From a virus (taxonomy: Duplodnaviria > Heunggongvirae > Uroviricota > Caudoviricetes), in IMG/VR virus record IMGVR_UViG_2563366932_000014: a stretch of DNA of 42,975 nt, one strand, 5' to 3'. The notes under the pieces were generated by a model that searched no databases, was not told the DNA's origin, and saw only the letters and a program-made list of their open reading frames with translations. This document shows, piece after piece, positions 1 through 18,455 of this stretch (its first letter is position 1; the number at the start of each line of letters is the position of its first letter). Made by a program: the position numbers and the translations under genes.

Positions 1-198
1 ATGGCACTGGACAGTTATGCATCTCCGAATATTATTCCGGAGCTAAGACAACCGAATGCCGCAGCAGGTAAGATCACGCTAGGGGGGCTGGACAGAATGG
101 CTGTTACGCCCAGTGTGAAGAAAAGAAGGCTAAGTATGGTAGAATTTCCATACGCACAGACCTTGTTATCCGACTATACAGCCTGGAAGGCACTATGA
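1..198 (+). CDS. hypothetical small protein (65 aa), first gene of a two-gene operon
   Basis: ORF starts at window position 1; its stop overlaps the next start (ATGA at 195-198), suggesting translational coupling; no recognisable family. Confidence 0.3.
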   Translation: MALDSYASPNIIPELRQPNAAAGKITLGGLDRMAVTPSVKKRRLSMVEFPYAQTLLSDYTAWKAL

Positions 199-983
199 CA
201 AATCTACAACTGGAAGAAAGATTTAGGGCGCTTGAGAAAGATTACGATGCGCTCATTTCCACAAAATATACTGCGCAGAACGTTCTCACTCACACTATGG
301 AAACCTATGTTGATTCTGGTAAATATAAAAACTGGATCGCCAGAGTGAAAAAGTTAATAGAGGACAGCTACGGAAAAGAGTCTGATTATTACAATGACTT
401 CAATACTGTAAACAGCAGGTGGTCTTCTAATTACAATACACTGATCAAAAGTTATAAACCGTTGTTTGATGCGGCGAGAGATGATCTTGCGCACTCTGCT
501 GTCAGTACTAATACTCCTCAAGAAGGTTCGCCGCTGAGCCTCGTACTTAATATTCTTAACAGGTTTCCGACCTTTGTTCGCCAGTTAAAGAGGCGGTACA
601 ACGGCCGTGCGCCGCTTGAAGTTAATGATGAGTATGACGTACAGGATTTGATTTATGCACTGCTGACGCTTCATTTTAATGATATTAGGGCGGAAGAGTA
701 TACCCCCAGCTTTGCGGGCGCGGCCTCAAGACAGGACTTTCTTTTGAAAAAAGAGAAAATTGTGATAGAGGTGAAGAAAACCCGTGAATCTCTGGGAGCG
801 GGTAAAGTTGGTGGAGAGTTGCTTATTGATATGGCGCGCTACCGCGCTCACCAAGACTGCGATACGTTGATCTTGTTTGTATATGACCCGGATTGCTACA
901 TAAATAATCCTTTGGGCGTGAAAACCGATCTGGAATCTAAAGACGCGGAAGGAAAAGTGAAGGTTGTTATTGCGCAGTTCTGA
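195..983 (+). CDS. hypothetical protein (262 aa) with C-terminal PD-(D/E)xK-like nuclease motif
   Basis: long ORF coupled to upstream ORF; C-terminal residues ..EYDVQDLIYALL.. and ..EKIVIEVKK.. fit a D...(D/E)xK pattern by eye; fold not verified. Confidence 0.5.
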   Translation: MTNLQLEERFRALEKDYDALISTKYTAQNVLTHTMETYVDSGKYKNWIARVKKLIEDSYGKESDYYNDFNTVNSRWSSNYNTLIKSYKPLFDAARDDLAHSAVSTNTPQEGSPLSLVLNILNRFPTFVRQLKRRYNGRAPLEVNDEYDVQDLIYALLTLHFNDIRAEEYTPSFAGAASRQDFLLKKEKIVIEVKKTRESLGAGKVGGELLIDMARYRAHQDCDTLILFVYDPDCYINNPLGVKTDLESKDAEGKVKVVIAQF

Positions 984-1520: not shown

Positions 1521-1577
1521 CTCTCATCATGTGCGAAAATTGACCACAATATGAAATCCAGTTCCATTCCGAAATCA

Positions 1578-2301
<724 letters not shown>

Positions 2302-2715
2302 TAGACTGGCCCCCTGAATCTCCAGACAACCAATATCACTTATTTAAGTGATAGTCTTAATACTAGTTTTTAGACTAGTCATTGGAGAGCAGATGATTGA
2401 TGTCTTAGGACCGGAGAAACGCAGACGGCGTACCACACAGGAAAAGATCGCAATTGTTCAGCAGAGCTTTGAACCAGGGATGACGGTCTCCCTCGTTGCC
2501 CGGCAACACGGTGTGGCAGCCAGCCAGTTATTTCTCTGGCGTAAGCAATACCAGGAAGGAAGTCTTACTGCTGTCGCCGCCGGAGAACAGGTTGTTCCTG
2601 CCTCTGAACTTGCTGCCGCCATGAAGCAGATTAAAGAACTCCAGCGCCTGCTCGGCAAGAAAACGATGGAAAATGAACTCCTCAAAGAAGCCGTTGAATA
2701 TGGACGGGCAAAAAA

Positions 2716-3735
<1,020 letters not shown>

Positions 3736-3833
3736 TCAATTGACAACTTATAATCCCTACTAGTTAGCATTATGATTTCCAGAGTGAGGAATATAAAAAT
3801 CTCTGTTTCTGGCACATAACAGCCCTTAAGATC

Positions 3834-3891
3834 GTAGCTCGCCATCATGGGGTGTCGGGGGGCGGAGGTTCAAATCCTCTCGTGCCGACCA
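3834..3891 (+). other. 3' fragment of a tRNA-Pro(GGG)-like gene (anticodon loop through CCA), probable attachment-site remnant
   Basis: ..tcatggggtgtcgggg..ggaggttcaaatcctctcgtgccgacca: T-arm GGAGG-TTCAAAT-CCTCT, acceptor 3' strand and CCA present; no 5' strand pairs with the acceptor, so not an intact tRNA. Confidence 0.6.
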
Positions 3892-3906
3892 AAAATCCCT
3901 TAAGAA

Positions 3907-3931
3907 CCAGCCTATTATGGCTGGTTTTTTT
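3907..3931 (+). terminator. rho-independent terminator just after the tRNA fragment
   Basis: stem ccagcc/ggctgg, loop tattat, then 7 T. Confidence 0.7.
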
Positions 3932-4099
3932 ATGATTGTTTTTTATGCGGAGAAATACCGGGGAATAATTGGGGTAAAACACCTTTAGGCTATTCACTTA
4001 GCCTACCACCATCAAAATCTTTCCGAATGTATCCATCTCTTTTTTCTTATGCAGCTAAAACGAAGTCTTGATACTGTTTATTTACACAGATAAGAATAA

Positions 4100-4119
4100 T
4101 ACTGTCTACAAACGCAGTA
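4100..4119. promoter_or_regulatory. LexA (SOS) box-like site upstream of the dinI-like remnant
   Basis: tactgtctacaaacgcagta matches the TACTGT-N8-ACAGTA pattern with one mismatch, about 14 bp before the ATG. Confidence 0.5.
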
Positions 4120-4132
4120 CAAAAGAAGTGTT

Positions 4133-4380
4133 ATGCGTATTGAGATCTCCATAGCCAAAGACAAAATGACCAAATGCCAAACGGCGCTGTGGACGCGTTA
4201 AAGGAAGAATTAACCCAACACATTGGCAAGCGTTATGACGATGTGGAGATGATCGTAAAAGCCACCAGCAACGATAGTTTTTCAGTTAGACATACTGCAG
4301 ATAAAGATTGAGCTAAAACTTTCGTTCAGGAAACTCTGAATGATACCTGAGAGTCTACTGAAGAGTTGTTTGTTCACTAG
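4133..4380 (+). pseudogene. dinI-like gene remnant (frameshift plus two in-frame TGA stops)
   Basis: frame A gives [11 protein letters not shown]..; a second frame continues ..[37 protein letters not shown].. then stop; AKTFVQETLNDT stop ESTEELFVH stop; the pieces together resemble DinI (recalled, not searched). Confidence 0.5.
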
Positions 4381-4675
4381 TTAGCACGTAGGAAATCATT
4401 CAATACTCGCACTATCGGAAGTTCACCAGCCAGTCGTAGCACGTCCTTGCAAACGACGTGCCTACGGTTTCAATCACCTCTCACCATCAATTCTATCAAT
4501 AATAATTAAACAGCGCCTAGACAAAATAAATAACAACAAGTCAACAACCTCGACAGGATGCCGATGGGATGATGAAGAGATAAGAAAGAATAACCAGTAA
4601 AGCCCTAAAACGTCAGCGTTCAGACGCGTTTTTTACTTAATCGGTAACAAATACGTTGTATCATAGCAAAATAAA

Positions 4676-6625
4676 ATGATTGTTCTAAATCAGATTAACT
4701 CCTCACTTTTGTACAATGTCGCTTACAGGTATACCATGAAATCCGAGACGCTAACTGTCCAACAACTTTTTCAAGACCGCCGACAATACTGTGTTCCATT
4801 CTATCAACGTGCCTATGTATGGACTCAGCAAGACCAGTGGTCAGCTCTACTGGAGGATATCCTAGAGAAAGTACAATCCCGGCTCTCGGGTACAAAACCA
4901 ACTCCCCATTTCCTTGGTGCGGTTGTACTGGAACCTCAATCAAAAAAAGGATTATTAGGTGTAGATTCCATACATATTATTGATGGTCAGCAACGATTGA
5001 CCACTCTTCAATATGTTCTGGCATCCATCCGATTAGCATTACGTGCTACGGATCTTTCCAGCTTAGAGGCTCTCATTTCGCCTTGCCTGAAAAACTCAAA
5101 CGAAGACACAATGCGAAATAAAGAAGTAGAACGCTTCAAACTGTGGCCAACTTTTCGGGATCAAACTCATTTTATTCAAAGTTTTAATGTTGAAAATATT
5201 GACGATCTCCGGGACGTATTCTCTGATAGTTTCACGCAGCATGGTACGTTGCGTAAGCATTTTAATCACCCGCCATCACTAGAAGCATTATGTTTTTTTA
5301 CTGAAGCCTTTATAAAATGGATTAAAATAGAAAACCACTCACCACAAGAAAATGCTGTAGCTCTAATTGAGGCTGTCTTAACAGATCTGAAACTGGTAAG
5401 CATATTTCTCGAAGCTGAAGATGATGCCCAAATAATTTTTGAAACATTAAATGGGCGAGGGGCGGAACTTCATGCTACGGATCTTATTCGCAACTATATC
5501 TTTATGTGCGCTGAGCATGAAAATATTAATGCTATTGAATTATATGAAAATGAGTGGAAGAGCTTTGAAGATAAATACTGGTCGGAAAAACAACGCCGTG
5601 GACGTATTAATAAACCACGCATGGAGTGGCTAGTACATGCGACATTGCAATCAGAAAGGCAACGTGAAATTGATCTGTCTCGCCTTTACAATGAGTATCG
5701 TGATTATGTAAGTAAGGACTTGTCTTCACAACGAGCAGATCTGCAAGTAAAGCGCCTCAAACAATATGCATCACAATATAAAGAATTGGTTGATGGTTTT
5801 GGCACAACCCCCATCTCACACTTTGGATATCGCATCGCAGACTATGATGTGACGACACTTTATCCGCTTGCTTTGTTCATTTCGATAGCTAACATCGCTG
5901 ATGATGAGAAAGCAGCCATGTATAATGATCTTGTCTCCTACGTAGTACGAAGAGCCGTATGTGGCCTGACGCCAAAGAATTACAACAATGTATTTATGAA
6001 TGTATTGCGGCACTTGGCTAAAACGGAAATTTCCAGTGTTGAGTTACGTAATATCCTCAATAACTTAAATGGCGAAGCCTCACGTTGGCCTGGTGACTCA
6101 GAATTTCTCAACGCTTGCATCAATGCTCCACTTTATCCTGGCAGGCTCGACGCACCGAAAATGCGCTCAATGTTAACGGAACTTGAAAGAGAACTTTGTC
6201 GCCAAGTAAAGACAGAAAAGCCTGATGTTCCAAATCTTTCTAATCTCGATATCGATCATCTTATGCCTCAAAGTTGGTATTCCTGTTGGCCTCTCGAAAA
6301 TGGTCGTATGGTGACAAATTCAGATGCTACGGTATTGAACCAAATTGTTCTGTCTGGAACCGATCTTACCCCTGAACAGCTACTGGTAAGGAAACGGCAA
6401 CAAGCGATATCTACTTTGGGAAATCTAACTTTGCTTAACCTTAGCGTAAACCGTTCTGTTCAGAATGCTGTATTTCTGAAAAAACGTGATGCTCTCATCG
6501 TCCACACCAATCTACGACTGAACATTCCACTTATAGTTAAGGATAAATGGGATGAGGATGAAATCCTGGAGCGGGGTAAAAAGTTGGGGGAAATTGCATT
6601 GAAAGTATGGCCAAAACACGATTAA
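4676..6625 (+). CDS. GmrSD-family (DUF262 N-terminal, DUF1524/HNH-like C-terminal) putative type IV modification-dependent restriction endonuclease
   Basis: 649-aa ORF; N-terminal ..FYQRAYVW.. and DGQQR motif; C-terminal ..DIDHLMPQS.. and ..NLSVNRSVQN.. His-Me finger-like; AT-rich by inspection; start may be the ATG at 4736. Confidence 0.65.
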   Translation: MIVLNQINSSLLYNVAYRYTMKSETLTVQQLFQDRRQYCVPFYQRAYVWTQQDQWSALLEDILEKVQSRLSGTKPTPHFLGAVVLEPQSKKGLLGVDSIHIIDGQQRLTTLQYVLASIRLALRATDLSSLEALISPCLKNSNEDTMRNKEVERFKLWPTFRDQTHFIQSFNVENIDDLRDVFSDSFTQHGTLRKHFNHPPSLEALCFFTEAFIKWIKIENHSPQENAVALIEAVLTDLKLVSIFLEAEDDAQIIFETLNGRGAELHATDLIRNYIFMCAEHENINAIELYENEWKSFEDKYWSEKQRRGRINKPRMEWLVHATLQSERQREIDLSRLYNEYRDYVSKDLSSQRADLQVKRLKQYASQYKELVDGFGTTPISHFGYRIADYDVTTLYPLALFISIANIADDEKAAMYNDLVSYVVRRAVCGLTPKNYNNVFMNVLRHLAKTEISSVELRNILNNLNGEASRWPGDSEFLNACINAPLYPGRLDAPKMRSMLTELERELCRQVKTEKPDVPNLSNLDIDHLMPQSWYSCWPLENGRMVTNSDATVLNQIVLSGTDLTPEQLLVRKRQQAISTLGNLTLLNLSVNRSVQNAVFLKKRDALIVHTNLRLNIPLIVKDKWDEDEILERGKKLGEIALKVWPKHD

Positions 6626-6649
6626 TGCAATTAATAAAATGATTATAGT

Positions 6650-6669
6650 GGCCTTACATTAGTAAGGCC
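6650..6669 (+). terminator. hairpin downstream of the GmrSD-like gene (possible terminator)
   Basis: ggccttac atta gtaaggcc; no clean T-run follows. Confidence 0.3.
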
Positions 6670-6720
6670 GCTACTCACTATTAAATACTTTAATTTGCAT
6701 CAAGAACAGCAGTGTCAGCC

Positions 6721-6849
6721 CTAGGTCTCGGACTTTGTACCGCTTATCTTGTCTTCAAAAATCAGCTCGCATCCTGCACAGTTCAGCGCATTACGTTGTA
6801 GATCTGTGTTCTGGTCATTTGTTGACACACGTACATAGCCAATAAGCAT
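6721..6849 (-). pseudogene. truncated 5' remnant of a Pin/Gin/Cin-type serine DNA invertase gene
   Basis: minus strand encodes MLIGYVRVSTNDQNTDLQRNALNCAGCELIFEDKISGT.., then the match is lost and a stop follows; the remaining ~150 codons of an invertase are absent. Confidence 0.7.
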
Positions 6850-6903
6850 GGTAGATCTCCCTGACAAAAGCAGGAATGATGCCATTTGCTCGTTATTTCT
6901 GCA

Positions 6904-6929
6904 TTTTCATAAACGTTGGTTTGGGAGAA
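6904..6929. repeat. 26-bp hix/gix-like inversion crossover site, promoter-distal
   Basis: ttttcataaacg tt ggtttgggagaa; right half-site is the exact reverse complement of the left half-site of the site at 8831-8856; central dinucleotide TT versus AA. Confidence 0.65.
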
Positions 6930-7370
6930 GCGGCAAAACGGAATGTGGGCAACGGGGAAAACCAAATCCCTGATATGTCTTTCTGGACGGTTACTGGTGG
7001 CAATGGAAATTTTGTGATTCGTCAACCTGACGGGCTAATCATTCAGATGGTTACTGTAAGTATAAGCGGCCCAGTGGCGATGAATGGAATGACTGATAAT
7101 GCTTATGCCATCACAGGTTCTAATAAGTCTTATATTGCCACAGCCACATTGCCCTTTGTATTTCCTAATAAGGTGCTGGGCGTTATCCCTCTGGTATCAA
7201 CAACAGCTTATGGTGGTGTATCCAGTAATATTACAGGTTCATACGCGACGGCGGTTTGTTCTTTTGCCGCTGTCAGGGGGAATAATACGATTGTGTTCAA
7301 AGTCGACAAACCACTGAATGCAGCCTTTCCTTCAGATACCAGCGTCTCAGCGTTAATCATTGGACGGTAA
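6918..7370 (+). CDS. promoterless alternative tail-fibre C-terminal cassette (Sv'-like)
   Basis: frame is open from the crossover site; in-silico inversion would fuse it in frame to the constant N-terminal part (..ALENLGLGE) of the tail-fibre gene. Confidence 0.6.
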   Translation, partial: GLGEAAKRNVGNGENQIPDMSFWTVTGGNGNFVIRQPDGLIIQMVTVSISGPVAMNGMTDNAYAITGSNKSYIATATLPFVFPNKVLGVIPLVSTTAYGGVSSNITGSYATAVCSFAAVRGNNTIVFKVDKPLNAAFPSDTSVSALIIGR

Positions 7371-7372
7371 TA

Positions 7373-7816
7373 ATGAACTCAGTATTCTTTTCACCCGGAA
7401 GTAAAAGTTTTTATCTGCAAGAATTGTTTCCAGAATATGAGGATGCGGGAACGCTTCCTGATGATGTTATTGAAATTACCAGAGAAACATATGAGCAATT
7501 TCTTGGTCTGCATCCAGAAGGGAAAGAAATTGGCGCTGACAGTTCAGGACGGCCAGTATGGATTAATTCCCCACCCCCTTCAAAAGAGGATGAGGTGTTG
7601 ACGGCTGAAATGAAAAAAATATCTTTGGTTTCAGAAGTCAATACCTACATCAATACCCATCAGTGGCCTGGCAAAGCTGCTATTGGTCGTCTGAAAGGCG
7701 AGGAACTGGCGCAATATAATTCGTGGCTGGATTATCTGGACGCACTGGAACTGGTCGATACTTCCTGTGCGCCAGATATTGAATGGCCTACGCCTCCGGC
7801 AGTTCAGGCCAGATGA
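7373..7816 (+). CDS. alternative tail-fibre assembly protein (U'-like)
   Basis: 147-aa ORF right after the Sv' cassette; C-terminal ..WPTPPAVQAR resembles the tail-fibre assembly protein family; its 3' end overlaps the convergent assembly gene. Confidence 0.65.
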   Translation: MNSVFFSPGSKSFYLQELFPEYEDAGTLPDDVIEITRETYEQFLGLHPEGKEIGADSSGRPVWINSPPPSKEDEVLTAEMKKISLVSEVNTYINTHQWPGKAAIGRLKGEELAQYNSWLDYLDALELVDTSCAPDIEWPTPPAVQAR

Positions 7817-8390
7817 CATCCGGCGCTGTGCTGGTATTTGTTGCCGTCACCGCGTCAATGTAATCCAGCACAGCGTTAAGCCGGGTTGTTTCTGCCTGCA
7901 TCAGCTTCCGTCCGGCCTGTAATTTCAGCTGAATCAGACCGATGGAAGCCATTGCAGCATCAATCAGTGACTGACGCTGTGCTTCTGCCGCGTCTACTGC
8001 GGCGCTATGCTGTGCCTCAGTATCGGTCACCCATTTCTCACCATCCCATTTATCGTATGGCGTTAATGGGGCAATAGTGGTTGTATTTTCGGGGTAATCA
8101 CCCGGTGCTGTGATTTGTTTTGATTCTCCCGTTTCGGTGTTATAGACGATTTCACCGCGATGGTCTGGCACATATTCCCATGAATTTAAATTCACAGAAC
8201 GACAGATAGCATAACCCGCCTTATGTATACCTGGTGCATCCAGACAGGAATATGCCGGGATACCAACACCAACGGCAAGATATTCACTTGAAGTGGAAAT
8301 ATATTCCCGAGTTTCACCATCATAGTTATAAACGGTAATATCCCCTGCCTTTGTAGCAACAAGTCCACTATTTAATATTGCTTTATCCAT
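7788..8390 (-). CDS. tail-fibre assembly protein (Tfa/U-like)
   Basis: 200-aa ORF directly downstream of the tail-fibre gene. Confidence 0.7.
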   Translation of the reverse strand: MDKAILNSGLVATKAGDITVYNYDGETREYISTSSEYLAVGVGIPAYSCLDAPGIHKAGYAICRSVNLNSWEYVPDHRGEIVYNTETGESKQITAPGDYPENTTTIAPLTPYDKWDGEKWVTDTEAQHSAAVDAAEAQRQSLIDAAMASIGLIQLKLQAGRKLMQAETTRLNAVLDYIDAVTATNTSTAPDVIWPELPEA

Positions 8391-9133
8391 TATGCTGCTC
8401 TCACGATATAGTTAAATGCAATGTTGCGTGGACGGGTATCGACGGGGTTAACGGCCACTGTACCCGACACGGACTGGTCATTACCGTTGCTAACGGTAAT
8501 GTTACTACTGGTTGATCCAATCCCTACTGAATCGGTAAATTTAGCACCTGAGCCGCTCAAAGTTCCCGAGATGATAGCTAGCTCCACATAAAAAGTACCT
8601 ACAGTTGGCTCTTGTGTTGACAGCACCGCACGCCTTGAATCAACGCCGCGCCCATCATCCCAGCCACGAATAAACTCACCACGTAAATCAGGCAATTTAT
8701 TTGTCGGATAAGCCTTTGCCAGTTCCGGGTATTCTTCAGCAGAAAAAGCCGCACCGTTGCATTTCAGCCAGCCTGTTGGCGGTGTGGCTGAAGGCCATGG
8801 AACAGGCACACCAACAGGTAATGCAGAGCCTTCTCCCAAACCAAGGTTTTCGAGAGCCGTTTTCACCGTGCCGTCCGATTTGATATCGCTAAACGGATTC
8901 TTGCGGCTTAACAGCAGCGCACGAAGCGCGGTAAGCAGCTGGTCGTGCCGCGCCTTCTCCAGACTGGCACCGGATGCCTCCACCACGCTGCAGAGTTCTT
9001 CCTGCAACATGTCAAAGTAGTCATCATCCAGATCGGTGGCAGGCGTGCCTGTCTGGGGGTTACCACGGGTAAAACCGTTCTTACCCGCGCCGAACTTATC
9101 CTTCTGCGCGGTTTTCGTGTCTATACGATGCAT
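8390..9133 (-). CDS. tail-fibre protein (constant N-terminus plus currently expressed variable C-terminus)
   Basis: 247-aa ORF with tail-collar-like segment ..[18 protein letters not shown]..; crossover site lies inside it. Confidence 0.7.
8831..8856. repeat. 26-bp hix/gix-like inversion crossover site inside the tail-fibre gene
   Basis: ttctcccaaacc aa ggttttcgagag, of the form ..AAACC-NN-GGTTT..; encodes ..LENLGLGE.. Confidence 0.65.
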
Positions 9134-9136
9134 GGA

Positions 9137-9721
9137 TTACTCCGGATATTTAAAAATTACGTAGGTATGCGAAGGGCAGAGTTTGTTAAGCACACATTCG
9201 ACGACGGTGTCGCCCCAGATACGCAGCGCGGAATCACAGGGATCGCCACATGTCATCCAGGTGCTGTTGGTGGCGGCTGGCATGTTGACCTGCCAGTAAT
9301 ACCGCCATTCCGGCGCATTCACCGCGTCAGTACAGGCCGATGAGCAGGTGAACGTGCTTTTGTCGTATCGCGTGATGGTGGCGTCTGGTCTGCCCAGGGC
9401 AGCAAGCTGTGCAAGGTAAAAATCCTCATTGATGCCGCCCGCCAGGTTAACCTTCGCATCCAGTCGTTGCTGACGCTGGCGAAGGGTCTGTGTTCCTGCG
9501 GGAATACATTCATCCGGCAGGCCGCACAGACGCTCCCAGCGATTTATCAGTTCGGTGGTGGTGCGCGGATCCAGCTCCCGCATCAGGGCATCCGCACGCT
9601 GATGAACGCGGGTTAATGACTGTGCCGCACCGGCAATCGCCGGATCGCTGGCTGACCACGCCGGACCGGGCGGCAGCAGTGCCGACAACAGACGGATGTA
9701 ATCATCGTTTGTCACGCCCAT
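9137..9721 (-). CDS. tail/baseplate protein (Mu gp48-like)
   Basis: position between baseplate J and tail fibre; family call from recalled similarity. Confidence 0.5.
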
Positions 9722-10770
9722 GAAATCGTCCCCAGAACCGCCAGTTCATTTTTTGCAATGGAGATATTTTCCGCCGGTGCAAGCAATTGATGGCTGTATT
9801 CCCCGTTCGCACCGGAAATCGCTTCACTGATACGCGACACCTTCAGTTCTCCCTGCGGATAACCATCACGCAGCAGGAACGAACGCAACTCCGCGGTGAT
9901 GGCAGCCCGTATTTCCGGTGTATCCGGCGTCACACGGATATGAAAATCCACCGTATGCGCCACCGGCCTGAACACATACAAATCAGAGCCTGCCACCGGG
10001 GCCAGTGGCCCGATATGTTGTCTTGCCGCCGTTTCCGTTGATTCTTCCGGAATGGGATTAATCAGGTCACTGCTGGCAATCATCACACCGACAGTCCCCG
10101 TTCCCATCCAGTGACGGTATGCCCATGCGCGGGTAATGCCGGGCAATTCTTTAGCCCAGACAACATAGTCCCCGTCAGCCCCGCCCTGAGGCGTCCAGTA
10201 ATACCGCTCAATGACGCGGGCGCGCCACGTTTCCAGCTCTTCAGTATCAAATCCACCTGTCAGAGTGTCTGCCACGCCGGAAGACGGCAGACCATTAACC
10301 GGCGTGACCAGGATTAATGACGTACCGTCGTCAGCGTTACCGACCGCGCCTGCACTTGAGCAGGCGATCGGCACGCGCAGGACACCACCGGCGCTGGTTG
10401 CATCGGCAGTTGCCGTGTACTGAATCAGGTCATCGCGCTGAATAACACTCCCGGCGGTCACCTTCAGGCCATCGCTGACGCCTTCCCAGCGCATATACCC
10501 GCTGGCAGTCGTGGCCCCCTTGCGCGGACACCGTTTCATCGCAGCATGTCGCGCCAGCCAGGACTCATCGCACAGGTCAGGCAGCATGTTCATTGCCAGA
10601 TAATCGATGTACCCGTAAACCGTATGCAGCGCCGCCGCATACACCTTTGCCCGCACGTCTTCATCCATGCGCCGGAGCGTGTCGCTGACGTCCAGCCTGG
10701 CGAATAAATCGTTACGGAGCATACTGATATTTTCTGCCAGCGTCGGGCGCTGAAATTCACTGTCCGCCAT
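9712..10770 (-). CDS. baseplate J-like protein (Mu gp47-like)
   Basis: 352-aa ORF in baseplate gene order. Confidence 0.65.
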
Positions 10771-11185
10771 GCGTTATCGCACTCCACAGATCATCTAAAG
10801 AAATCATTACCGGTCCGTCACGACGCCAGAGAGTGATACTGTTACCCAGTTCATTAATCCCGGTGCGGAGGATATCCAGATCAATACGGGACACCACGCC
10901 GTCATCAATCATCCATTGCAGGCATTCGCGGATATACCCCCTTACCGTCTGCACCAGCTGATTGGTCAGTTTGCTGCGCTGAAGCAGCCACAGTCGGGAG
11001 CCGTAACGGTCATTCTGTACCGCAGGCCAGGTATCCCCCCACCATCCCATCGGGACGTCGGCGTTGTCATCAGGCTCCGCCCGCCGCCAGGTAAACAGGG
11101 AAATCACCACGGCGCGGGTCAGCGGATCCAGCGGTGCGCTGGCGCAGGTGCGTTTACCGTTCACCGTCAGCCACAGTTCCATCAT
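10757..11185 (-). CDS. baseplate protein (Mu gp46-like)
   Basis: 142-aa ORF between spike and J-like genes. Confidence 0.5.
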   Translation of the reverse strand: MMELWLTVNGKRTCASAPLDPLTRAVVISLFTWRRAEPDDNADVPMGWWGDTWPAVQNDRYGSRLWLLQRSKLTNQLVQTVRGYIRECLQWMIDDGVVSRIDLDILRTGINELGNSITLWRRDGPVMISLDDLWSAITHGGQ

Positions 11186-11730
11186 GCCTCCATCGCTTTA
11201 TCAGGTTTGTCGGTGTTACTGCCCTGACCGTTCTCTCTGTGACGATGCCCGTTATAGGCAAGCCGCATCGCTGACATGGTGGTGCCGCTGGAGTCGCACA
11301 GGTCTTTCACCTGTCCTGTCACTTCCAGGTCCATTTCAAAACGTGCTTCAGGTGCATTGCGAAACGTGATCGTTTTACCTGCACCGTCCACCACGATCCC
11401 CTCCCGGGTCAGCGTCACAGACTGCCCCTGATCGTCATAGACCGCCACCTCACCCGTCTGCAGCCCTTTCAGGCGGTAGCGCCGGTCCGACACCGTAACA
11501 ACCACCGCATGAGAACGGTCACCATCCGGAAACAACACCACCGCTTCCGCACCGCTGTTTGCCCTTGCGGTAAAACCGTAGGGTTCAAGATGTTCAACCC
11601 CGGCTTTGGGTTCACCGGCAATCAGGGACACATCCACGGTCTGACATTTCGTGGCGGCACTGATGCTTTTCACCACTGCCCGCCCAATCAGGCCGAGGAG
11701 TTGTCGCTGCATGGCTTCAATCGTACTCAT
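11182..11730 (-). CDS. baseplate assembly protein V / spike (Mu gp45-like)
   Basis: 182-aa ORF; position and translation fit gpV-like proteins. Confidence 0.6.
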   Translation of the reverse strand: MSTIEAMQRQLLGLIGRAVVKSISAATKCQTVDVSLIAGEPKAGVEHLEPYGFTARANSGAEAVVLFPDGDRSHAVVVTVSDRRYRLKGLQTGEVAVYDDQGQSVTLTREGIVVDGAGKTITFRNAPEARFEMDLEVTGQVKDLCDSSGTTMSAMRLAYNGHRHRENGQGSNTDKPDKAMEA

Positions 11731-12809
11731 CAGAACGGGTCCTCCTGTACTCTGGCTTTTTTCTTTTTCCGCGCGCCGGGGGCTTCGGGTTCAGGCAGAT
11801 AAGCATCAGGTGGGCCGACACGGATTTCCGTCAGGGTGCCGTTCTGGTCCTGAGTAAACGTGACTTCCGAGACAAGCAGTTCGGTATTGTCGAAACCACA
11901 GACCGGATCGAAGACAATCACCCGCTGGTTGGGCTGCCACAGCGTACCGTTACCCTGTCGCCAGCCCTGCACCACATAGGTGGTTTCATCCGTCCGCGCC
12001 GCCCGTTGTCGGGCTTCAAAGTCAGCACGCGCAATACAGCCTGCCCCCGTAGCCTGCCCTGTCTGCCTGATATACATCGGACGGTAACGGGCAATAAATG
12101 CGTCCTCTGTGCGGGCCCGCAGCGCGCTGGTGGTGGCCTCACCGAAATCATCGTCGTTTCCAGCACGCTGCCCCGCCACCTGGTAAACAGAAAACCGCTC
12201 CCGGATACTCTTCTCCGTATCGCAGGAAAGGATGTTTTCCCCGAGTACCAGCGCAGTATGTGCCCGCGTTGAGCCAATACCGCCAATCACCAGCCTGCCG
12301 TGTGGGTCGTCGTAAGCCAGTGCCTGCTGCTGACCGAGTATTTTGTTGATTACCTCAATCACCGTTTCACCGTGATCGGGCTGGACGTCAGGAATAACAC
12401 CCGACGGCGCACCGTTGTTCACCACCTCAATGCCGAAAGGCGCAGCAAGCGCCTGCGCAATCTGTACCAGCGATCGTCCGTTAAACTGTGTCGGTTCGGC
12501 TGCACAGTCAATCAGGTCAGCGGTCAGACTGCGTCCGGCAATACCGGTGCTGACCGAACGGGCATCGTAACGAACGGGCGTCGCCTCCACCCAGCCGGTG
12601 ATCACCAGCTCATCACCAATCAGCACCTCCACTTTTGAACCGTTTTTAATGCGCGGCTGAAGCGTGGTGATACCCTCATCACCCGGCCACTGGCGGGTGA
12701 TCTCCACACTGAAATCCCGCGCCAGCCGTTCAATACCGGCACCGATGCGCACCGATGTCCAGCCATTCCACTCCCGGCCATTTACCCGTAGCGTGACGTT
12801 ATCGTTCAT
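11730..12809 (-). CDS. tail protein (Mu gpP-like)
   Basis: 359-aa ORF downstream of the DNA circulation-like gene. Confidence 0.55.
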   Translation of the reverse strand: MNDNVTLRVNGREWNGWTSVRIGAGIERLARDFSVEITRQWPGDEGITTLQPRIKNGSKVEVLIGDELVITGWVEATPVRYDARSVSTGIAGRSLTADLIDCAAEPTQFNGRSLVQIAQALAAPFGIEVVNNGAPSGVIPDVQPDHGETVIEVINKILGQQQALAYDDPHGRLVIGGIGSTRAHTALVLGENILSCDTEKSIRERFSVYQVAGQRAGNDDDFGEATTSALRARTEDAFIARYRPMYIRQTGQATGAGCIARADFEARQRAARTDETTYVVQGWRQGNGTLWQPNQRVIVFDPVCGFDNTELLVSEVTFTQDQNGTLTEIRVGPPDAYLPEPEAPGARKKKKARVQEDPF

Positions 12810-14176
12810 TGCACTGGCACCTTCAGAGGGATCACCGGCACAAAGCCGGGATGCGTAATGGCATTACGCCGGATAATGTCCGCGTCACGCGCCGCGTTAT
12901 CAAACCAGGTCGCCGCCAGCACCAGCGCGGGTAAAACCTCATCCGGTGTGCGCTGAATGATCCGTGCAGACTGTTCAAGGCGCGTGTTGATATCCGCATT
13001 CAGATCTGCTTTCACCCGGCGCAGCGCCAGAAACAGCACATCACTGGTTGTACGGGACAACTCCTTATCAATTGCCGTATTCAGTGTGTCGCGAATGTCG
13101 GTCAGTTCTTCCCACGTTGGCAGGTCAACCGTGTTTTTCACCGCCGGTGCATTGTTCAGTGCCGGATGCGTGACAGAAGGCCAGCCGGTGCTCTGCGCGG
13201 GTGTTGTTGACTGCCCCACTGTGGCATTCTGCATCACCGCGGAAGTTGTGGGCGCAGGCAATCGTGTGACGGCATACGCCGCTTCGCTGATTGCGGTCGT
13301 ACGAAGGGTGCTGGCAACCACGTTACGCTGCTGCGTCGCCGTGGCGGTGGTTTTACTGTCCGTTTTCCAGACGCCGCGCGGTTGCAGATCGCTGCCGAGG
13401 CTGACACCGGAAAGCGTTTTGATCATGGTGACCAGGTCGCTGGCGTTACCATAAAGGCGTTTCCCGGTACGCCACATTTTCTGCACCTGCTCAACGAAAT
13501 TTTTGCCTGACGATGGCGGCGGCAGAAGTACCGAGATATCCCCCTGCAACAGCCTGGCGGCATCCGATACGGCAGAATCCACCACTTTCATCGCATCAGA
13601 AACATACCCAAGCATTGTGCTGGCATTACCGACGACGTCGTTCTGCACAAAATCTGCCACGCCATCGATACTGAAACCACTGAAGCTGTCACTGATGCAG
13701 TCATCCAGTGCAGAACAGGATGACATCAGCGTCTGCGCCGTCGCCGCACCTGAAGTGGGGTAAGAGAGTTCTCCCGCTTCGACAAACTTCAGGTCAAAGC
13801 GGACAATACGCCCTTCACTCTTCGATGTGCTGACCCGAACTTCCCCGTCAACACAGACTTTCAGCTCACCGTAAGTCGGATGGACAAGCGTGCCGGGACC
13901 GGGTTTATTCAGCGCGTCAATCAGGCGATCGCGCTGGTCAAAGCAGTCATCTCCCACCACATAAGCTGTGATGGACGGGCGGAAAGTGATTTTCCCCAGG
14001 TCTTCGGTATAGGGTTTGTCGCGGTTCGGGTATTCGTGCGTTTCCACACGACGACCGGTTCCCGCACTTTCTTCTTCAACCTTAAACGGCACACCGCGAA
14101 ATGACGCGTCCTGAAGTCTGTCTTTCCACGTCATATAAACTCCGTACATAAAAAATCCCACCGGAGTGGGACTCAT
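12806..14176 (-). CDS. Mu gpN-like DNA circulation protein
   Basis: N-terminal ..MTWKDRLQDASFRGVPF.. typical of this family (recalled). Confidence 0.6.
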   Translation of the reverse strand: MSPTPVGFFMYGVYMTWKDRLQDASFRGVPFKVEEESAGTGRRVETHEYPNRDKPYTEDLGKITFRPSITAYVVGDDCFDQRDRLIDALNKPGPGTLVHPTYGELKVCVDGEVRVSTSKSEGRIVRFDLKFVEAGELSYPTSGAATAQTLMSSCSALDDCISDSFSGFSIDGVADFVQNDVVGNASTMLGYVSDAMKVVDSAVSDAARLLQGDISVLLPPPSSGKNFVEQVQKMWRTGKRLYGNASDLVTMIKTLSGVSLGSDLQPRGVWKTDSKTTATATQQRNVVASTLRTTAISEAAYAVTRLPAPTTSAVMQNATVGQSTTPAQSTGWPSVTHPALNNAPAVKNTVDLPTWEELTDIRDTLNTAIDKELSRTTSDVLFLALRRVKADLNADINTRLEQSARIIQRTPDEVLPALVLAATWFDNAARDADIIRRNAITHPGFVPVIPLKVPVQ

Positions 14177-14194
14177 TAACAGATTAATTTTTCA

Positions 14195-16030
14195 TTACCT
14201 GCCAAAGCGCGTATAGCCAACATCATGGCTGACATCAAAACCGCTGGATCGCGTTTCCATAACCCGCATACCCGGAGGTGAATTCACAAAAGAGACCTTG
14301 ATCTCACCATCAACTTTTGGCGCAGAAGCTTTGTTAATCATGAAGGGATTCGGGCCTGTGGCACCGGAGGCGTTGTTTGACTGAGCCGGATCCACCGCCT
14401 GATAAGGTGTGTATCCCCGTGCCGGTATTCCCGTCCCATAAGCATCATAAGCACCCGCGCCCCACTGCGCAGAGTTAATGGCATCGACCGTGTCACCGGA
14501 ACTGTCGGTAAACCACTCAATAATTGGCTTCAGCTTGTCCCACATATCCTGAAACCACTTAACAACCGGTCCCCAGTTATTGATTACCATCCCCAGCGGC
14601 GACCAGGCAAAAACCTTCTTCAGAAGTTCCCGGCCAGCCTCAAAATAAGGACCAATGGTTTCCCAGAGCTTCTTGAAATAAGGTCCGACAACATCCCAGT
14701 TAGTGATAATTAATCCCGCAGCCAGGGCTATCGCCGTCGCAATCATGCCAATCGGCGTCATCGACATGATCCTGCTGACAATACTGATGGCACCGCCAAC
14801 GCCCATCAATCCCAGTTTCAGAATCGCAAGACCGGCAGCAAGCCCGACGACGCCGCGAATAACCCGGGGATTTTCATCCGCAAACTTCGTGAATTTCTCC
14901 CCCAACTCCCCCAGCCATTGCGTGATATTTTTAGCGTCACCAGAAAATGCGCCGCCAATAGCCGCAAGGCCGTTAGTTGCGGTCCCTGTCATTGCCTCCC
15001 ACAGGTTGGACAGCGTACCAAGCTGTGCCTGAACACGTTTATTCAGACTGGCCTGTTTATTCATCTTCTGCTGGATCTGGTCGTAGCCATCCTTTCCTTT
15101 ATCGATTAGTGCATTGACCACCTGAAGGGTTTCGGCATCATCACCAAATATTGCCTTAAGTACACCAGTTCGCTTAACGTCGGTCAGTTTTCGCAGCTTT
15201 GCCAGTTGCCTGAACATGTTATCAAGACCGCCAAAACTCCCTTTGCCGTCAGTAAAATCGAGCTGTACCCCGAGTTTCTGGCGGGCCATGACTTTATTGA
15301 CGTCCCTGATTTTCTTAACGCTTAATCCGGACTGGATAACTTTTCGCAGGGCGTTACCTGCCGACTCCCCGTTCATCCCCATCTGATCCATCATGACGCT
15401 GATGGGGGCAAGGCTCTGTGCAGCCTGAAGACCGTCCTTGTTCACCATCTTCAGAACAGAGCTGGTTTTAGTGAAGAAGGACAACATGTTGGTATCGTCA
15501 ACGCCCAGATAAAACGCCTTCTGGATAGTGTCGAACAGCCCCATCATGTCTTCTGACGCCGTTCCGGTAGCATCCTGCATCTTTGCGGCAAACTCGGCAG
15601 CCGCTTCCGGTGTTTTTTTCAGTTGTACCGCAAGATAAGCTGTCGCTTTACCCACACCGCCAAGAATGTTTTCTGCCGGGATCCCCTGACGCACCAGCAT
15701 CTGCATCATGTTCTGGAAATCAGCCGTTGTACCGGGTAGCTGGTTACCCAGACCAATAGCCAGTTTATTGATGTCCTGAAAGCGCTTTCCGACCTCACCG
15801 TTCGCATCCATCATGGCAACTTTCAGCCCGGTGGCGGCGTTTTCCTGATCGGCATAAGATTTCAGGGAAAGCGTCAGACCCGCAGCCAGTCCGCCACCAA
15901 GCGCCAGCCCACCCTGTGACGCTTCTTCCGCCTGGCGTTTAAATCCCCGGATTTTCTTTTGCATTTTCGACAGCGCGGGAGAAAGCCTGTCGACACCGGT
16001 GATCAACGCCTTAAGCTCAAATTCAGCCAT
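14195..16030 (-). CDS. tail tape measure protein
   Basis: 611-aa helical Ala/Gly/Lys-rich protein with hydrophobic segments, downstream of the chaperone pair. Confidence 0.8.
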   Translation of the reverse strand: MAEFELKALITGVDRLSPALSKMQKKIRGFKRQAEEASQGGLALGGGLAAGLTLSLKSYADQENAATGLKVAMMDANGEVGKRFQDINKLAIGLGNQLPGTTADFQNMMQMLVRQGIPAENILGGVGKATAYLAVQLKKTPEAAAEFAAKMQDATGTASEDMMGLFDTIQKAFYLGVDDTNMLSFFTKTSSVLKMVNKDGLQAAQSLAPISVMMDQMGMNGESAGNALRKVIQSGLSVKKIRDVNKVMARQKLGVQLDFTDGKGSFGGLDNMFRQLAKLRKLTDVKRTGVLKAIFGDDAETLQVVNALIDKGKDGYDQIQQKMNKQASLNKRVQAQLGTLSNLWEAMTGTATNGLAAIGGAFSGDAKNITQWLGELGEKFTKFADENPRVIRGVVGLAAGLAILKLGLMGVGGAISIVSRIMSMTPIGMIATAIALAAGLIITNWDVVGPYFKKLWETIGPYFEAGRELLKKVFAWSPLGMVINNWGPVVKWFQDMWDKLKPIIEWFTDSSGDTVDAINSAQWGAGAYDAYGTGIPARGYTPYQAVDPAQSNNASGATGPNPFMINKASAPKVDGEIKVSFVNSPPGMRVMETRSSGFDVSHDVGYTRFGR

Positions 16031-16205
16031 GTGTGCGTTTCTCCTGCTCTATCCTGTTTGCCTGACTGACCAGCAAGGGAATTTCACTGATCGGCATATT
16101 CAGCAATTCGAAGGGATTAATGCGCCAGTAGCTGGCGCAGTCAAAGAAGCGATCAGTGAGGTATTCAGCCGTCAGGCCTGGAGGAAAAAACCAGCCACAA
16201 GCCAC
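16023..16205 (-). CDS. tail assembly chaperone, frameshift-extension ORF
   Basis: overlaps the 3' end of 16172-16441 in another frame, directly upstream of the tape measure gene. Confidence 0.4.
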   Translation of the reverse strand: MACGWFFPPGLTAEYLTDRFFDCASYWRINPFELLNMPISEIPLLVSQANRIEQEKRTHG

Positions 16206-16441
16206 GCCGCAGCATTCAGGTCTGCCGGAGACATCTGGTCGACAGAGTTTTGCGGCACTTTCGCCAGCCGCACAATGTATTTCGATACCACATGCGCCAG
16301 AAGTCTGACGGACTCATCCTGATTCATCTGGTAGGGATACCCCAGCTCGCGGACATCTTTCCCGGTGGGCTCATCAAACTCCAGTACGGAGAGTGTCTCG
16401 CCATGAGCGGTAATCGGTTTCTTTAACTCAAGCTCTTTCAT
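16172..16441 (-). CDS. tail assembly chaperone
   Basis: 89-aa ORF between tube and tape measure genes. Confidence 0.55.
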   Translation of the reverse strand: MKELELKKPITAHGETLSVLEFDEPTGKDVRELGYPYQMNQDESVRLLAHVVSKYIVRLAKVPQNSVDQMSPADLNAAAWLVAGFFLQA

Positions 16442-16797
16442 TACTGGTAATCCCCTTCTTCACCGTGGAACTCAAGATCAACCGTCCCTTCTTCGGCATT
16501 ATGGTTCGCTTCGCCGTGCAGCCAGGCAGACGACAGTACATAGACCTGACCGTTCGCCAGCTCGGCAGTGATGGTCATCTCATCAGACGAGGTGATTTTG
16601 CTCACCGGAAAATTCTTCGGCACCTTGAAGGTCCCTTTAACATAAGGCGCACGGTGAGTTTCCTTGCGGTCCACTGAACCGTCCAGGCCGATGATGTCAT
16701 CATTGACCGTCCTGTTCATGGGCACCTCAATGCCGCCGGTCAGCGATAGCTGCTGACCGTCAATTTTGAAATAACAGGTTCCCCCGATACGGGCCAT
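16441..16797 (-). CDS. tail tube protein (contractile tail)
   Basis: 118-aa ORF directly after the sheath gene. Confidence 0.7.
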   Translation of the reverse strand: MARIGGTCYFKIDGQQLSLTGGIEVPMNRTVNDDIIGLDGSVDRKETHRAPYVKGTFKVPKNFPVSKITSSDEMTITAELANGQVYVLSSAWLHGEANHNAEEGTVDLEFHGEEGDYQ

Positions 16798-18293: not shown

Positions 18294-18447
18294 CGGTGTT
18301 CACCTTTTTATTCACGCGCCGGATATCACCCGCTGCTTCACGGCGCAGCCAGTAGTTGTTCTCATCAACATTTCGCCCTTCGGCGGGCAAAAGGTCGCCG
18401 CGGGCAGGGTCAGGCACTGACCGCCCTTTAACAGGTTTCACAAACAT
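18277..18447 (-). CDS. small protein (56 aa) upstream of the sheath gene
   Basis: ORF below the 60-aa track cutoff, found by manual translation (MFVKPVKGRSVPDPARGDLL..); overlaps the sheath start. Confidence 0.4.
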   Translation of the reverse strand: MFVKPVKGRSVPDPARGDLLPAEGRNVDENNYWLRREAAGDIRRVNKKVNTDDDKL

Positions 18448-18455
18448 GATGATCC

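What the first reader, a model, noticed from the sequence alone, without database searches (positions are those of the whole stretch)
4676..6625. GmrSD-family putative type IV restriction enzyme carried at the prophage tail end
A single 649-aa ORF combines a DUF262-type N-terminal domain (DGQQR motif) with a DUF1524/His-Me finger C-terminus, the architecture of modification-dependent restriction enzymes. It is clearly AT-richer than the adjacent tail genes and has its own promoter-like region and downstream hairpin. It may defend the lysogen against modified-DNA phages.
Basis: partly seen in the sequence, partly recalled or inferred. Interest (0 to 1): 0.6.

Follow-up and report, generated by a model that had tools for sequence, protein, structure and literature searches.

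The report
Known prophage-borne GmrSD restriction enzyme
This gene is, residue for residue, the already published GmrSD "UT" enzyme of uropathogenic E. coli UTI89, a prophage-carried nuclease directed at the sugar-modified DNA of T4-like phages.

Summary
The ORF at 4676-6625 (+) is real. It has both GmrSD domains: Pfam GmrSD_N, E 7e-34, and GmrSD_C, E 4e-20. The accepted protein starts at ATG 4736 and is 629 aa, not 649. It is 100% identical to UTI89_C2960 (EcoUTGmrSD, WP_000834402.1), whose sequence is printed in He et al. 2015. It is 93% identical to Eco94GmrSD, where D507, H508 and N522 were shown to be catalytic; all three are conserved here. The gene is AT-rich (41% GC against 56% for the structural genes). 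It sits at the tail-fibre end of an e14/SfII-like myovirus prophage, in a 2.3-kb module that cuts the pin invertase gene after codon 41. A strong hairpin follows the stop codon. No promoter match rises above chance. About 300 of 5,426 complete E. coli genomes carry the gene. Published work reports that the UT enzyme is insensitive to T4 IPI*, and restricts T2, T6 and RB69 but not T4. The purified protein was inactive in vitro. Verdict: correct interpretation, already known, low interest. Side observations: the neighbouring type IV enzyme CMoRE/PD-T4-3 is split by IS2 in this window, and the slot beyond pin holds McrA, CMoRE or GmrSD in related prophages.

The parts
4736..6625 (+). gmrSD coding sequence (629 aa plus stop), identical to EcoUTGmrSD / UTI89_C2960 / WP_000834402.1
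   Evidence: RefSeq annotation of identical DNA in UTI89 and CEA212U. The translation equals the UTI89 protein and the sequence printed in He 2015 Fig. S1. PADLOC mREase_IV PDLC03655: 1415 bits, profile 1-629 of 629.
4676..4735 (+). In-frame 20-codon upstream extension of the maximal ORF; probably not translated
   Evidence: Lies outside all profile matches. No Shine-Dalgarno-like sequence precedes ATG 4676. The published and RefSeq proteins start at MKSETL.
4757..5503 (+). N-terminal GmrS / DUF262 (ParB/Srx-like) domain
   Evidence: Pfam PF03235 GmrSD_N, E 7.2e-34, full profile 1-199.
4982..4996 (+). DGQQR motif (residues 83-87), the proposed NTP-binding and hydrolysis site
   Evidence: Motif IIDGQQRLTTL found at residues 81-91. 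Its role is as proposed by Machnicka 2015 and tested by BrxU mutagenesis.
6086..6592 (+). C-terminal GmrD / DUF1524 His-Me finger (HNH) nuclease domain
   Evidence: Pfam PF07510 GmrSD_C, E 3.8e-20, profile 1-137 of 138. Motifs IDHLMPQ (506-512) and WDEDEILERGKKLGEIALKVW (605-625) are present.
6254..6301 (+). Catalytic D507-H508 ... N522
   Evidence: These residues are present at the same numbering as in Eco94GmrSD, where D507A, H508A and N522A abolish cleavage.
4392..4735 (+). Non-coding leader that travels with the gene; a promoter is presumed but not located
   Evidence: Window 4392-6979 aligns at 96% identity to a prophage at another chromosomal site (strain Res13-Sevr-PER07-33), and homology stops at 4392. 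There is no significant promoter match, Rfam hit or fold.
6646..6673 (+). Strong hairpin 21 nt after the stop codon (12-bp stem, 4-nt loop), with no U-run
   Evidence: Fold z = -5.9, and 0 of 200 shuffles fold as well. The 96%-identical allele keeps the stem through two changes that give G-U pairs only on the + strand transcript.
6727..6849 (-). Remnant of the pin-type serine invertase gene (first 41 codons); marks the right edge of the gmrSD module
   Evidence: RefSeq annotates 'recombinase family protein, missing C-terminus'. Homology to the invertase genes of P2-like phages (the compared copy, NC_041848, is itself only 164 codons) starts at 6728; the translation stops after ...ISGTKSE.
6911..8849 (.). 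Invertible tail-fibre segment bounded by inverted repeats 6911-6930 and 8830-8849 (context)
   Evidence: The arms match at 19 of 20 positions and lie 1899 nt apart. Alternative fibre tips and tail-fibre assembly genes lie on both strands.
3834..4350 (+). Mosaic left flank: a tRNA-Pro 3' fragment (3834-3891), its terminator-like hairpin (3902-3929), and a DinI-like pseudogene (4133-4350)
   Evidence: Matches annotated tRNA-Pro in thousands of genomes, and a tRNA-Pro::prophage junction in strain EC11 at 90% identity. ARAGORN finds no intact tRNA. DinI Pfam hit.

Best explanation

Shown here: the protein is identical to the published UTI89 enzyme. It has an N-terminal DUF262 domain with the DGQQR motif and a C-terminal DUF1524 His-Me/HNH domain with D507-H508-N522, about 195 residues apart. 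No methyltransferase partner is adjacent.

Inferred from close relatives: the N-terminal domain binds and hydrolyses NTP and gates activity. In BrxU, nucleotide binding converts an interlocked dimer to monomers. The C-terminal HNH site cuts DNA that carries hydroxymethyl- or glycosyl-hydroxymethyl-cytosine. In the 93%-identical Eco94GmrSD, cleavage falls between two modified cytosines on opposite strands 17-23 bp apart.

The lysogen is thereby protected from T-even-type phages. These phages answer with injected internal proteins such as IPI*. The UT allele is reported to be insensitive to T4 IPI* and to restrict T2, T6 and RB69 but not T4.

The allele differs from the IPI*-sensitive CT596/Eco94 type mainly in the first 160 residues. 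That pattern fits an arms race over inhibitor binding or substrate choice.
For: Pfam finds both domains above cut-off. PADLOC mREase_IV scores 1415 bits over its full length.

The DNA at 3632-7400 is 100% identical to UTI89. The protein equals UTI89_RS14420 / WP_000834402.1 and the UTI89GmrSD sequence printed in He 2015 Fig. S1.

D507, H508, N522, E271, E273, E278 and K280 are conserved at Eco94GmrSD numbering. Eco94GmrSD mutants D507A, H508A and N522A are inactive; the enzyme is ATP/GTP-stimulated, cuts 5hmC and glc-5hmC DNA, and restricts T4 lacking ip1 by more than 10^6-fold.

[quoted passage not shown] The BrxU reaction cycle and mutagenesis are.

The prophage context is shown. The intact ORF occurs in 300 of 5,426 complete E. 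coli genomes, 147 of them at 99% nucleotide identity or more. Of the 44 differences from Eco94GmrSD, 28 fall in residues 1-160 (binomial p = 1e-7).
Against: Purified UTI89_C2960 protein showed no cleavage or binding on T4, T2 or T6 DNA, or on modified oligonucleotides, under any condition tried (He 2015 supplement). The substrate of this exact allele is therefore not defined biochemically.

UTI89 also carries an intact CMoRE/PD-T4-3 gene about 1 kb away and a second GmrSD homologue, UTI89_C5048. Any restriction phenotype measured in the whole strain is confounded by these.

I could not read Rifat 2008 or Bair & Black 2007 directly. The in vivo data are therefore taken second-hand. No promoter was identified, so expression in the lysogen is assumed rather than shown.
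Confidence: 0.9

Rival explanations
1. The UT allele is an inactive or crippled GmrSD. It may be retained neutrally or need an unknown partner, and the T-even restriction seen in UTI89-type strains may come from neighbouring systems such as CMoRE/PD-T4-3 or the second GmrSD homologue.
For: The purified protein was inactive in vitro under all conditions tried. In UTI89 an intact CMoRE gene, 100% identical to the crystallised APEC O1 enzyme that restricts T2, T4 and T6, lies about 1 kb away. He 2015's supplement words the phenotype as a property of the 'UTI89 strain'.
Against: All experimentally defined catalytic residues and family motifs are intact. The full-length ORF is kept at 99% identity or more in 147 genomes, and as diverged but intact alleles in about 150 more. 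Loenen & Raleigh describe the tests as done with the cloned CT enzyme and its UT homologue. The reported spectrum (T2 and T6 but not T4) differs from that of CMoRE, which also restricts T4. GmrSD enzymes are notoriously hard to purify in active form, and this one co-purifies with GroEL.
Confidence: 0.08
2. The protein is a DUF262/DUF1524 enzyme of another functional class. It could be an SspE-like sensor of phosphorothioate status or a BrxU-like component of BREX, rather than a stand-alone type IV enzyme.
For: PADLOC also gives weaker partial hits to SspE (58 bits or less, N-terminal about 120 residues only), Orf5 and HEC-06 models.
Against: The best hit, mREase_IV, scores 1415 bits over its full length, against 262 bits or less for the others. 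No ssp, dnd or BREX genes are annotated anywhere in the window. The protein is identical to a named GmrSD.
Confidence: 0.02
3. The protein is made from ATG 4676 as the 649-aa form the first reader described, with a 20-residue N-terminal extension.
For: The extension is open, begins with ATG, and is conserved and open in a 96%-identical allele.
Against: No ribosome-binding sequence precedes 4676, while a weak AGG precedes 4736. No profile covers the extension. The CT596, Eco94 and UT proteins are all annotated, and Eco94 and UT were cloned, from MKSETL; the Eco94 protein made this way is active.
Confidence: 0.1

Closest known systems
EcoUTGmrSD (UTI89_C2960, 'UT enzyme') of E. coli UTI89
   Same: Identical in all 629 residues, with identical flanking DNA from 3632 to 7400. 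It has the same prophage and the same position beyond the tail-fibre genes.
   Different: The gene itself does not differ. In this window the left neighbour, CMoRE, is split by an IS2 that UTI89 lacks.
Eco94GmrSD (E. coli STEC_94C) and the two-chain EcoCT596 GmrS/GmrD
   Same: 93.0% identical and the same length. D507-H508-N522 and E271/E273/E278/K280 are shared. It also sits just downstream of the tail-fibre genes of an SfII-like prophage.
   Different: There are 44 substitutions, 28 of them in residues 1-160. The CT596 and Eco94 enzymes are blocked by T4 IPI* and restrict T4 lacking ip1. The UT enzyme is reported to be IPI*-insensitive and not to restrict T4 at all. Eco94GmrSD is active in vitro; the UT protein was not.
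BrxU (GmrSD-family enzyme inside a BREX locus; first solved structure of the family)
   Same: The same DUF262 + DUF1524 architecture with DGQQR and D-H nuclease motifs. It is nucleotide-dependent and cleaves modified DNA.
   Different: Very distant in sequence: Picton 2021 reports 13% identity to GmrSD, and phmmer against the PDB does not find it. BrxU is embedded in BREX on a plasmid and has a promiscuous substrate range. Whether the UT enzyme forms the interlocked dimer is unknown; it was reported to be monomeric.
McrA of prophage e14 (E. coli K-12)
   Same: A positional and functional analogue: a type IV HNH nuclease in the same slot, immediately beyond pin at the tail-fibre end of a related prophage.
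   Different: An unrelated protein family with no DUF262 or DUF1524 domain. The record annotates it as a 5-methylcytosine-specific endonuclease. In e14 the pin gene is intact.
CMoRE / PD-T4-3 (GIY-YIG type IV enzyme)
   Same: A single-gene, modification-dependent nuclease against 5hmC and glucosyl-5hmC phages. It occupies the same prophage slot in O157:H7 and strain S51, and lies about 1 kb from gmrSD in UTI89.
   Different: It has a GIY-YIG nuclease and a different sensing domain, and forms a tetramer. In this window it is inactivated by IS2.

Membership tests
[quoted passage not shown] | N-terminal DUF262 / GmrSD_N (ParB/Srx-like) domain with the DGQQR motif | tested here: met
   PF03235, E 7.2e-34, 118 bits against a cut-off of 33. 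IIDGQQRLTTL at residues 81-91.
[quoted passage not shown] | C-terminal DUF1524 / GmrSD_C His-Me finger domain with the (E/D)-H ... N nuclease motif | tested here: met
   PF07510, E 3.8e-20, 72.6 bits against a cut-off of 23. IDHLMPQ at 506-512, with D507, H508 and N522 present. The generic motifs L(G/A)NLxLLxxxN and NxxFxxKK are recognisable (LGNLTLLNLSVN, NAVFLKK) but each is off by one residue in spacing.
[quoted passage not shown] | Both domains on one chain, joined by a linker of 200-400 residues (the predominant fused form) | tested here: met
   The domains cover residues 8-256 and 451-619 of the 629-aa protein, about 195 residues apart. Helicity of the linker was not predicted here; He 2015 reports high helical content by circular dichroism.
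[quoted passage not shown] | Sequence identity to an experimentally studied member | tested here: met
   100% identical to the published UTI89GmrSD and 93.0% identical to Eco94GmrSD.
[quoted passage not shown] | No cognate methyltransferase (type IV: cuts modified DNA only) | tested here: met
   The neighbours are a DinI pseudogene and a pin remnant. The only methyltransferase in the window is a phage Dam-type gene about 26 kb away, among the replication and regulatory genes.
[quoted passage not shown] | NTP-stimulated cleavage of hmC or glycosyl-hmC DNA but not of unmodified DNA | not testable with these tools
   Shown for Eco94GmrSD. For this exact protein the only published in vitro attempt was negative.
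[quoted passage not shown] | Restriction of T-even phages in vivo, and interplay with injected internal proteins | not testable with these tools
   Reported for the UT enzyme by secondary sources citing Rifat 2008. The primary paper is not held.
SspE (phosphorothioate-sensing DUF262 nuclease) | Full-length match to SspE models and linkage to sspABCD | tested here: not met
   Only the N-terminal about 120 residues match, at 58 bits or less. No ssp genes are in the window.
BrxU (BREX-embedded GmrSD) | Location inside a BREX operon | tested here: not met
   No BREX genes are in the window; the gene lies between a DinI pseudogene and a pin remnant in a prophage.

The most novel reading that the evidence does not exclude
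The slot just beyond the pin invertase at the tail-fibre end of e14/SfII-like prophages may be a dedicated exchange point for modification-dependent (type IV) nucleases.

In a small hand-picked sample it holds McrA (K-12 e14), CMoRE/PD-T4-3 (O157:H7, S51) or GmrSD (UTI89, this window, Res13-Sevr-PER07-33). In other strains it holds unannotated ORFs: 437 aa in FAM21845; 343, 114 and 70 aa in 23AR1101; and a 280-aa protein with a marginal DpnII-MboI-nuclease hit in ECOR29. If the slot is such an exchange point, those ORFs are candidates for new type IV enzymes. So is the solo REase_DpnII-MboI protein at window 195-983.

Separately, this strain, with CMoRE knocked out by IS2 and GmrSD-UT intact, would be a natural background for settling what the UT allele actually recognises. 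One possibility is arabinosyl-hmC or another glycosyl form rather than T4-type glucosyl-hmC.
Probability: 0.3. Interest if true: 0.4.

Novelty: already known. Interest (0 to 1): 0.12.

Why it matters
As a discovery it matters little. The gene, its two-domain architecture, its prophage location next to the tail fibres and its anti-T-even role are all in print, and the exact protein has been cloned, purified and tested.

Its practical value is for annotation. RefSeq still labels it only 'DUF262 domain-containing protein', yet about 5% of complete E. coli genomes carry it. It should therefore be recognised as a type IV restriction enzyme when predicting phage susceptibility of ExPEC/ST95-type strains, for example in phage therapy with T4-like phages.

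One scientific question remains open: what the UT allele actually recognises, and why it resists IPI*. The clustering of substitutions in the first 160 residues points to where to look.

Tried and rejected
Promoter and terminator. The promoter scan of 3800-7000 was no better than shuffles and placed no site upstream of ATG 4736. The terminator scan does not call the downstream hairpin, because it has no T-run.

RNA elements. Rfam at permissive threshold over 3600-7000 gave only a chance sub-threshold snoRNA hit inside the CDS. Folding the leader (4590-4650 and 4640-4750) gave nothing beyond shuffles.

Attachment sites. A search for attL/attR-type direct repeats between the left end (3600-4700) and the integrase end found no shared 13-mer of note. 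ARAGORN finds no intact tRNA or tmRNA in the window.

Other collections. The deposited phage genomes hold no close homologue (best 24-28% identity), so the gene is known only from prophages in bacterial assemblies. In PLSDB one 'plasmid' record (1.3 Mb, probably chromosomal) covers at least 80% of the query, and a 19-kb E. albertii record covers 75%.

Solved structures. phmmer against the PDB found only one distant DUF262 structure, 9jfl, matching the N-terminal half at E 3.5e-8. BrxU was not reached by sequence. NCBIfam has no model.

Literature. Bair & Black 2007 and Rifat 2008 are not held.

Start codon. I tried to settle it by looking for a stop codon in the extension of a diverged allele, but the extension is open there too.

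Slot cargo. The ECOR29 slot protein and window 195-983 show no pairwise similarity, so they are not the same family despite both touching the DpnII-MboI model.

Not done. I did not run structure prediction or the large protein-database searches. Exact identity to a published enzyme made them unnecessary.
Full report
**Observation**

Pfam recovers both expected domains well above the curated cut-offs. GmrSD_N (formerly DUF262) covers residues 28-276 (E 7.2e-34). GmrSD_C (formerly DUF1524) covers residues 471-639 (E 3.8e-20).

The PADLOC model for type IV methyl-directed restriction enzymes (PDLC03655) matches at 1415 bits. The match runs over its entire 629 positions and begins at residue 21 of the ORF. 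RefSeq annotation of identical DNA also starts the gene at ATG 4736, giving 629 aa. A weak AGG lies 8-10 nt before 4736; nothing comparable precedes 4676. The 649-aa figure is therefore the maximal ORF, not the likely protein. The 20-codon extension is also open in a diverged allele, so comparison cannot formally exclude it.

**The other sub-claims**

- The gene is 41.2% GC, against 55.6% for the tail-to-head structural block (8390-25984) and 49.7% for the window. The claim of AT-richness holds. The immediately adjacent invertible tail-fibre segment is itself only 45.6% GC.
- A 12-bp hairpin at 6646-6673 follows the stop codon. The 75-nt fold has -25 kcal/mol, z = -5.9, and none of 200 shuffles folds as well. 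It lacks a U-run and is not called by the terminator scan.
- In a 96%-identical allele the hairpin stem carries two changes that keep pairing only as G-U on the + strand transcript. With two sequences this is only a hint that the RNA form matters.
- The 'promoter-like region' is not supported. The scan found nine sigma-70-like matches where shuffles give 7.8 +/- 2.5, and none is placed upstream of ATG 4736.
- Rfam and folding of the leader gave nothing.

**Identity**

Megablast places window 3632-7400 at 100% identity on the chromosome of E. coli UTI89 (2902724-2906492) and many ST95-type ExPEC/APEC genomes. The translated protein equals UTI89_RS14420 / WP_000834402.1.

He et al. 2015 (PMC4437046) print the full sequence of 'UTI89GmrSD' (ORF UTI89_C2960) in their Fig. 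S1. I transcribed it, and it is identical to the window's protein over all 629 residues. The protein is 93.0% identical to Eco94GmrSD (44 differences). In that enzyme D507A, H508A and N522A abolish cleavage, and the E271/E273 and E278/K280 mutants are impaired. All of these residues are present here at the same numbering. This is the published 'UT enzyme' (EcoUTGmrSD), not a new family member.

**What is known about how it works**

- Eco94GmrSD cleaves 5hmC and glucosyl-5hmC DNA but not unmodified DNA. It is stimulated by ATP/GTP and cuts between two modified cytosines on opposite strands 17-23 bp apart. It restricts T4 lacking ip1 by more than 10^6-fold, while T4 IPI* protects the phage.
- Machnicka et al. 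2015 assign a ParB/Srx NTPase fold, with DGQQR as the nucleotide site, to the GmrS half. They assign an HNH nuclease to the GmrD half.
- The BrxU structure shows an interlocked dimer that nucleotide binding resolves into monomers. Mutagenesis supports both motifs.
- For the UT enzyme specifically, secondary sources citing Rifat et al. 2008 state three things. It is insensitive to T4 IPI*. It does not restrict T4 or T4 lacking ip1. It does restrict T2, T6 and RB69.
- Against this, He et al.'s supplement reports that purified UTI89_C2960 protein was monomeric and folded but inactive. It failed on T4, T2 and T6 DNA and on modified oligonucleotides in every buffer and cofactor combination tried. 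The prophage also could not be induced.
- I could not read Rifat 2008 or Bair & Black 2007, which are not held. The in vivo evidence is therefore second-hand.

**Context**

The window is essentially one prophage. Its genes include:

- tail fibre, YmfQ, gp47/gp46/V baseplate, tape measure, sheath and tube;
- head, portal and terminase;
- lysis, antitermination and replication functions;
- a LexA-like repressor (ymfK), with ymfT and ymfL;
- an integrase at about 40857-42029.

This is the e14/SfII-like myovirus type that He et al. describe for both the Eco94 and UTI89 loci.

gmrSD lies directly beyond the tail-fibre invertible segment, whose inverted repeats at 6911-6930 and 8830-8849 match at 19 of 20 positions. 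The serine invertase gene that normally follows is cut off after codon 41 (6727-6849, - strand). Homology to invertase genes of P2-like phages begins at 6728.

A prophage at a different chromosomal site (strain Res13-Sevr-PER07-33) shares window 4392-6979 at 96% identity, including the same pin truncation. Its left flank is different. The mobile unit is therefore about 2.3 kb (4392-6727): a 344-bp leader, gmrSD and the hairpin, joined to the stump of pin.

To the left the sequence is mosaic. It contains a tRNA-Pro 3' fragment with its terminator hairpin (3834-3929) and a DinI-like pseudogene. These are 90% identical to a tRNA-Pro::prophage junction in strain EC11, although this locus lies next to ssrA.

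**Distribution**

- 300 of 5,426 complete E. coli genomes carry at least 80% of the gene at 90% nucleotide identity or more. Of the 306 genomes with any match, 147 are at 99% or more (the UT allele), 75 at 95-99% and 84 at 90-95%. All copies are chromosomal.
- No deposited phage genome has a close homologue; the best is 24-28% amino-acid identity.
- Relative to Eco94GmrSD, 28 of the 44 substitutions fall in residues 1-160 (binomial p = 1e-7). Other alleles about 93% identical show the same clustering. This fits selection on inhibitor evasion or substrate choice in the N-terminal domain. I did not test for positive selection.

**Side findings**

1. In UTI89 the gene about 1 kb to the left encodes a GIY-YIG protein. 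It is 100% identical over 256 residues to the crystallised APEC O1 CMoRE (PDB 9U7U; PADLOC PD-T4-3, 453 bits). CMoRE is a type IV enzyme that degrades 5hmC and glucosyl-5hmC DNA and restricts T2, T4 and T6.
2. In this window that gene is split by a 1331-bp IS2 (2302-3632) with a 5-bp target duplication, CATAC. UTI89-type strains therefore carry two adjacent hmC-directed enzymes, while this strain has only GmrSD intact. The CMoRE paper does not mention GmrSD or prophages.
3. In related prophages the slot beyond pin holds several different genes:
   - McrA in K-12 e14;
   - CMoRE in O157:H7 Z1769 and S51;
   - GmrSD here and in Res13-Sevr-PER07-33;
   - ORFs without a clear family in 23AR1101, FAM21845 and ECOR29.

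   Five of eight sampled ends thus carry a known type IV enzyme. The sample is small and hand-picked from a spread list, so this is a lead and not a result.
4. Window 195-983 encodes a 262-aa protein with a strong REase_DpnII-MboI domain (E 9.5e-49). It resembles the nuclease end of Argonaute-associated effectors and is uncharacterised.

**Verdict**

The object is an already characterised enzyme in an already described genomic position. Novelty is 'already known' and interest is low.

What remains open is the biochemical specificity of the UT allele: it failed in vitro and has an unusual phage spectrum. A second open question is whether the pin-distal slot of e14-like prophages is a true hotspot for modification-dependent nucleases.

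Noticed in passing
window 1575-2301 and 3633-3684 (- strand), interrupted by 2302-3632: The CMoRE/PD-T4-3 GIY-YIG type IV restriction gene is split near codon 17 by a 1331-bp IS2 with a 5-bp target duplication, CATAC. The intact UTI89 copy is 100% identical over 256 aa to PDB 9U7U. UTI89 and APEC O1 therefore carry two hmC-directed enzymes about 1 kb apart, while this strain keeps only GmrSD.
   Followed up: yes
window 195-983 (+): A 262-aa 'hypothetical protein' has a strong REase_DpnII-MboI domain (PF18742, E 9.5e-49, residues 117-261). It also matches the C-terminal nuclease part of PADLOC Argonaute-associated 'Aga_Helical-REase' models. It is a solo nuclease of unknown role between ssrA and the prophage end, next to CMoRE.
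   Followed up: partly
window 6727-6849 (-); compare L007, L008, L009, L010, L012, L013: The slot just beyond pin in e14/SfII-like prophages holds different cargo. It is McrA in K-12 e14, CMoRE in O157:H7 and S51, and GmrSD here and in Res13-Sevr-PER07-33. In 23AR1101 (343, 114 and 70 aa) and FAM21845 (437 aa) it holds ORFs without family hits. In ECOR29 it holds a 280-aa protein with a marginal DpnII-MboI hit. This may be a hotspot for type IV nucleases.
   Followed up: partly
window 6727-6849 (-) and 6911-6930 / 8830-8849: The pin-type invertase is truncated after codon 41, but the invertible tail-fibre segment keeps its crossover repeats (19 of 20 matching). It could still be flipped in trans by another Pin. 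In K-12, PinQ-driven inversion of the homologous e14 segment creates StfE2, which blocks T2 adsorption (PMC12529663).
   Followed up: partly
window 3834-3929 and 4133-4350 (+): An orphan 3' fragment of tRNA-Pro lacks about the first 19 nt, so ARAGORN finds nothing. It is followed by its terminator-like hairpin and a frameshifted DinI-like pseudogene. The stretch is 90% identical to a tRNA-Pro::prophage junction in strain EC11, although this locus lies beside ssrA. The prophage end is therefore a recombinant mosaic.
   Followed up: partly
window 4736-5215 (residues 1-160 of GmrSD): Amino-acid differences between the UT allele and the IPI*-sensitive Eco94/CT596 type are concentrated in the first 160 residues (28 of 44, binomial p = 1e-7). 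Other alleles about 93% identical show the same pattern.
   Followed up: partly
NZ_CP082083.1 (strain MS20654), hits H2 and H83: In this genome the same gmrSD gene is itself split by an IS3-family element and is annotated as separate 'DUF262' and 'HNH endonuclease' pieces. This is a second case of IS inactivation of a type IV enzyme in this island.
   Followed up: no
window about 42021-42975 (-): Just past the integrase lie a 205-aa hypothetical ORF and the start of a 'STAS-like domain-containing protein', cut by the window end. They may be cargo at the other prophage end. Not examined.
   Followed up: no
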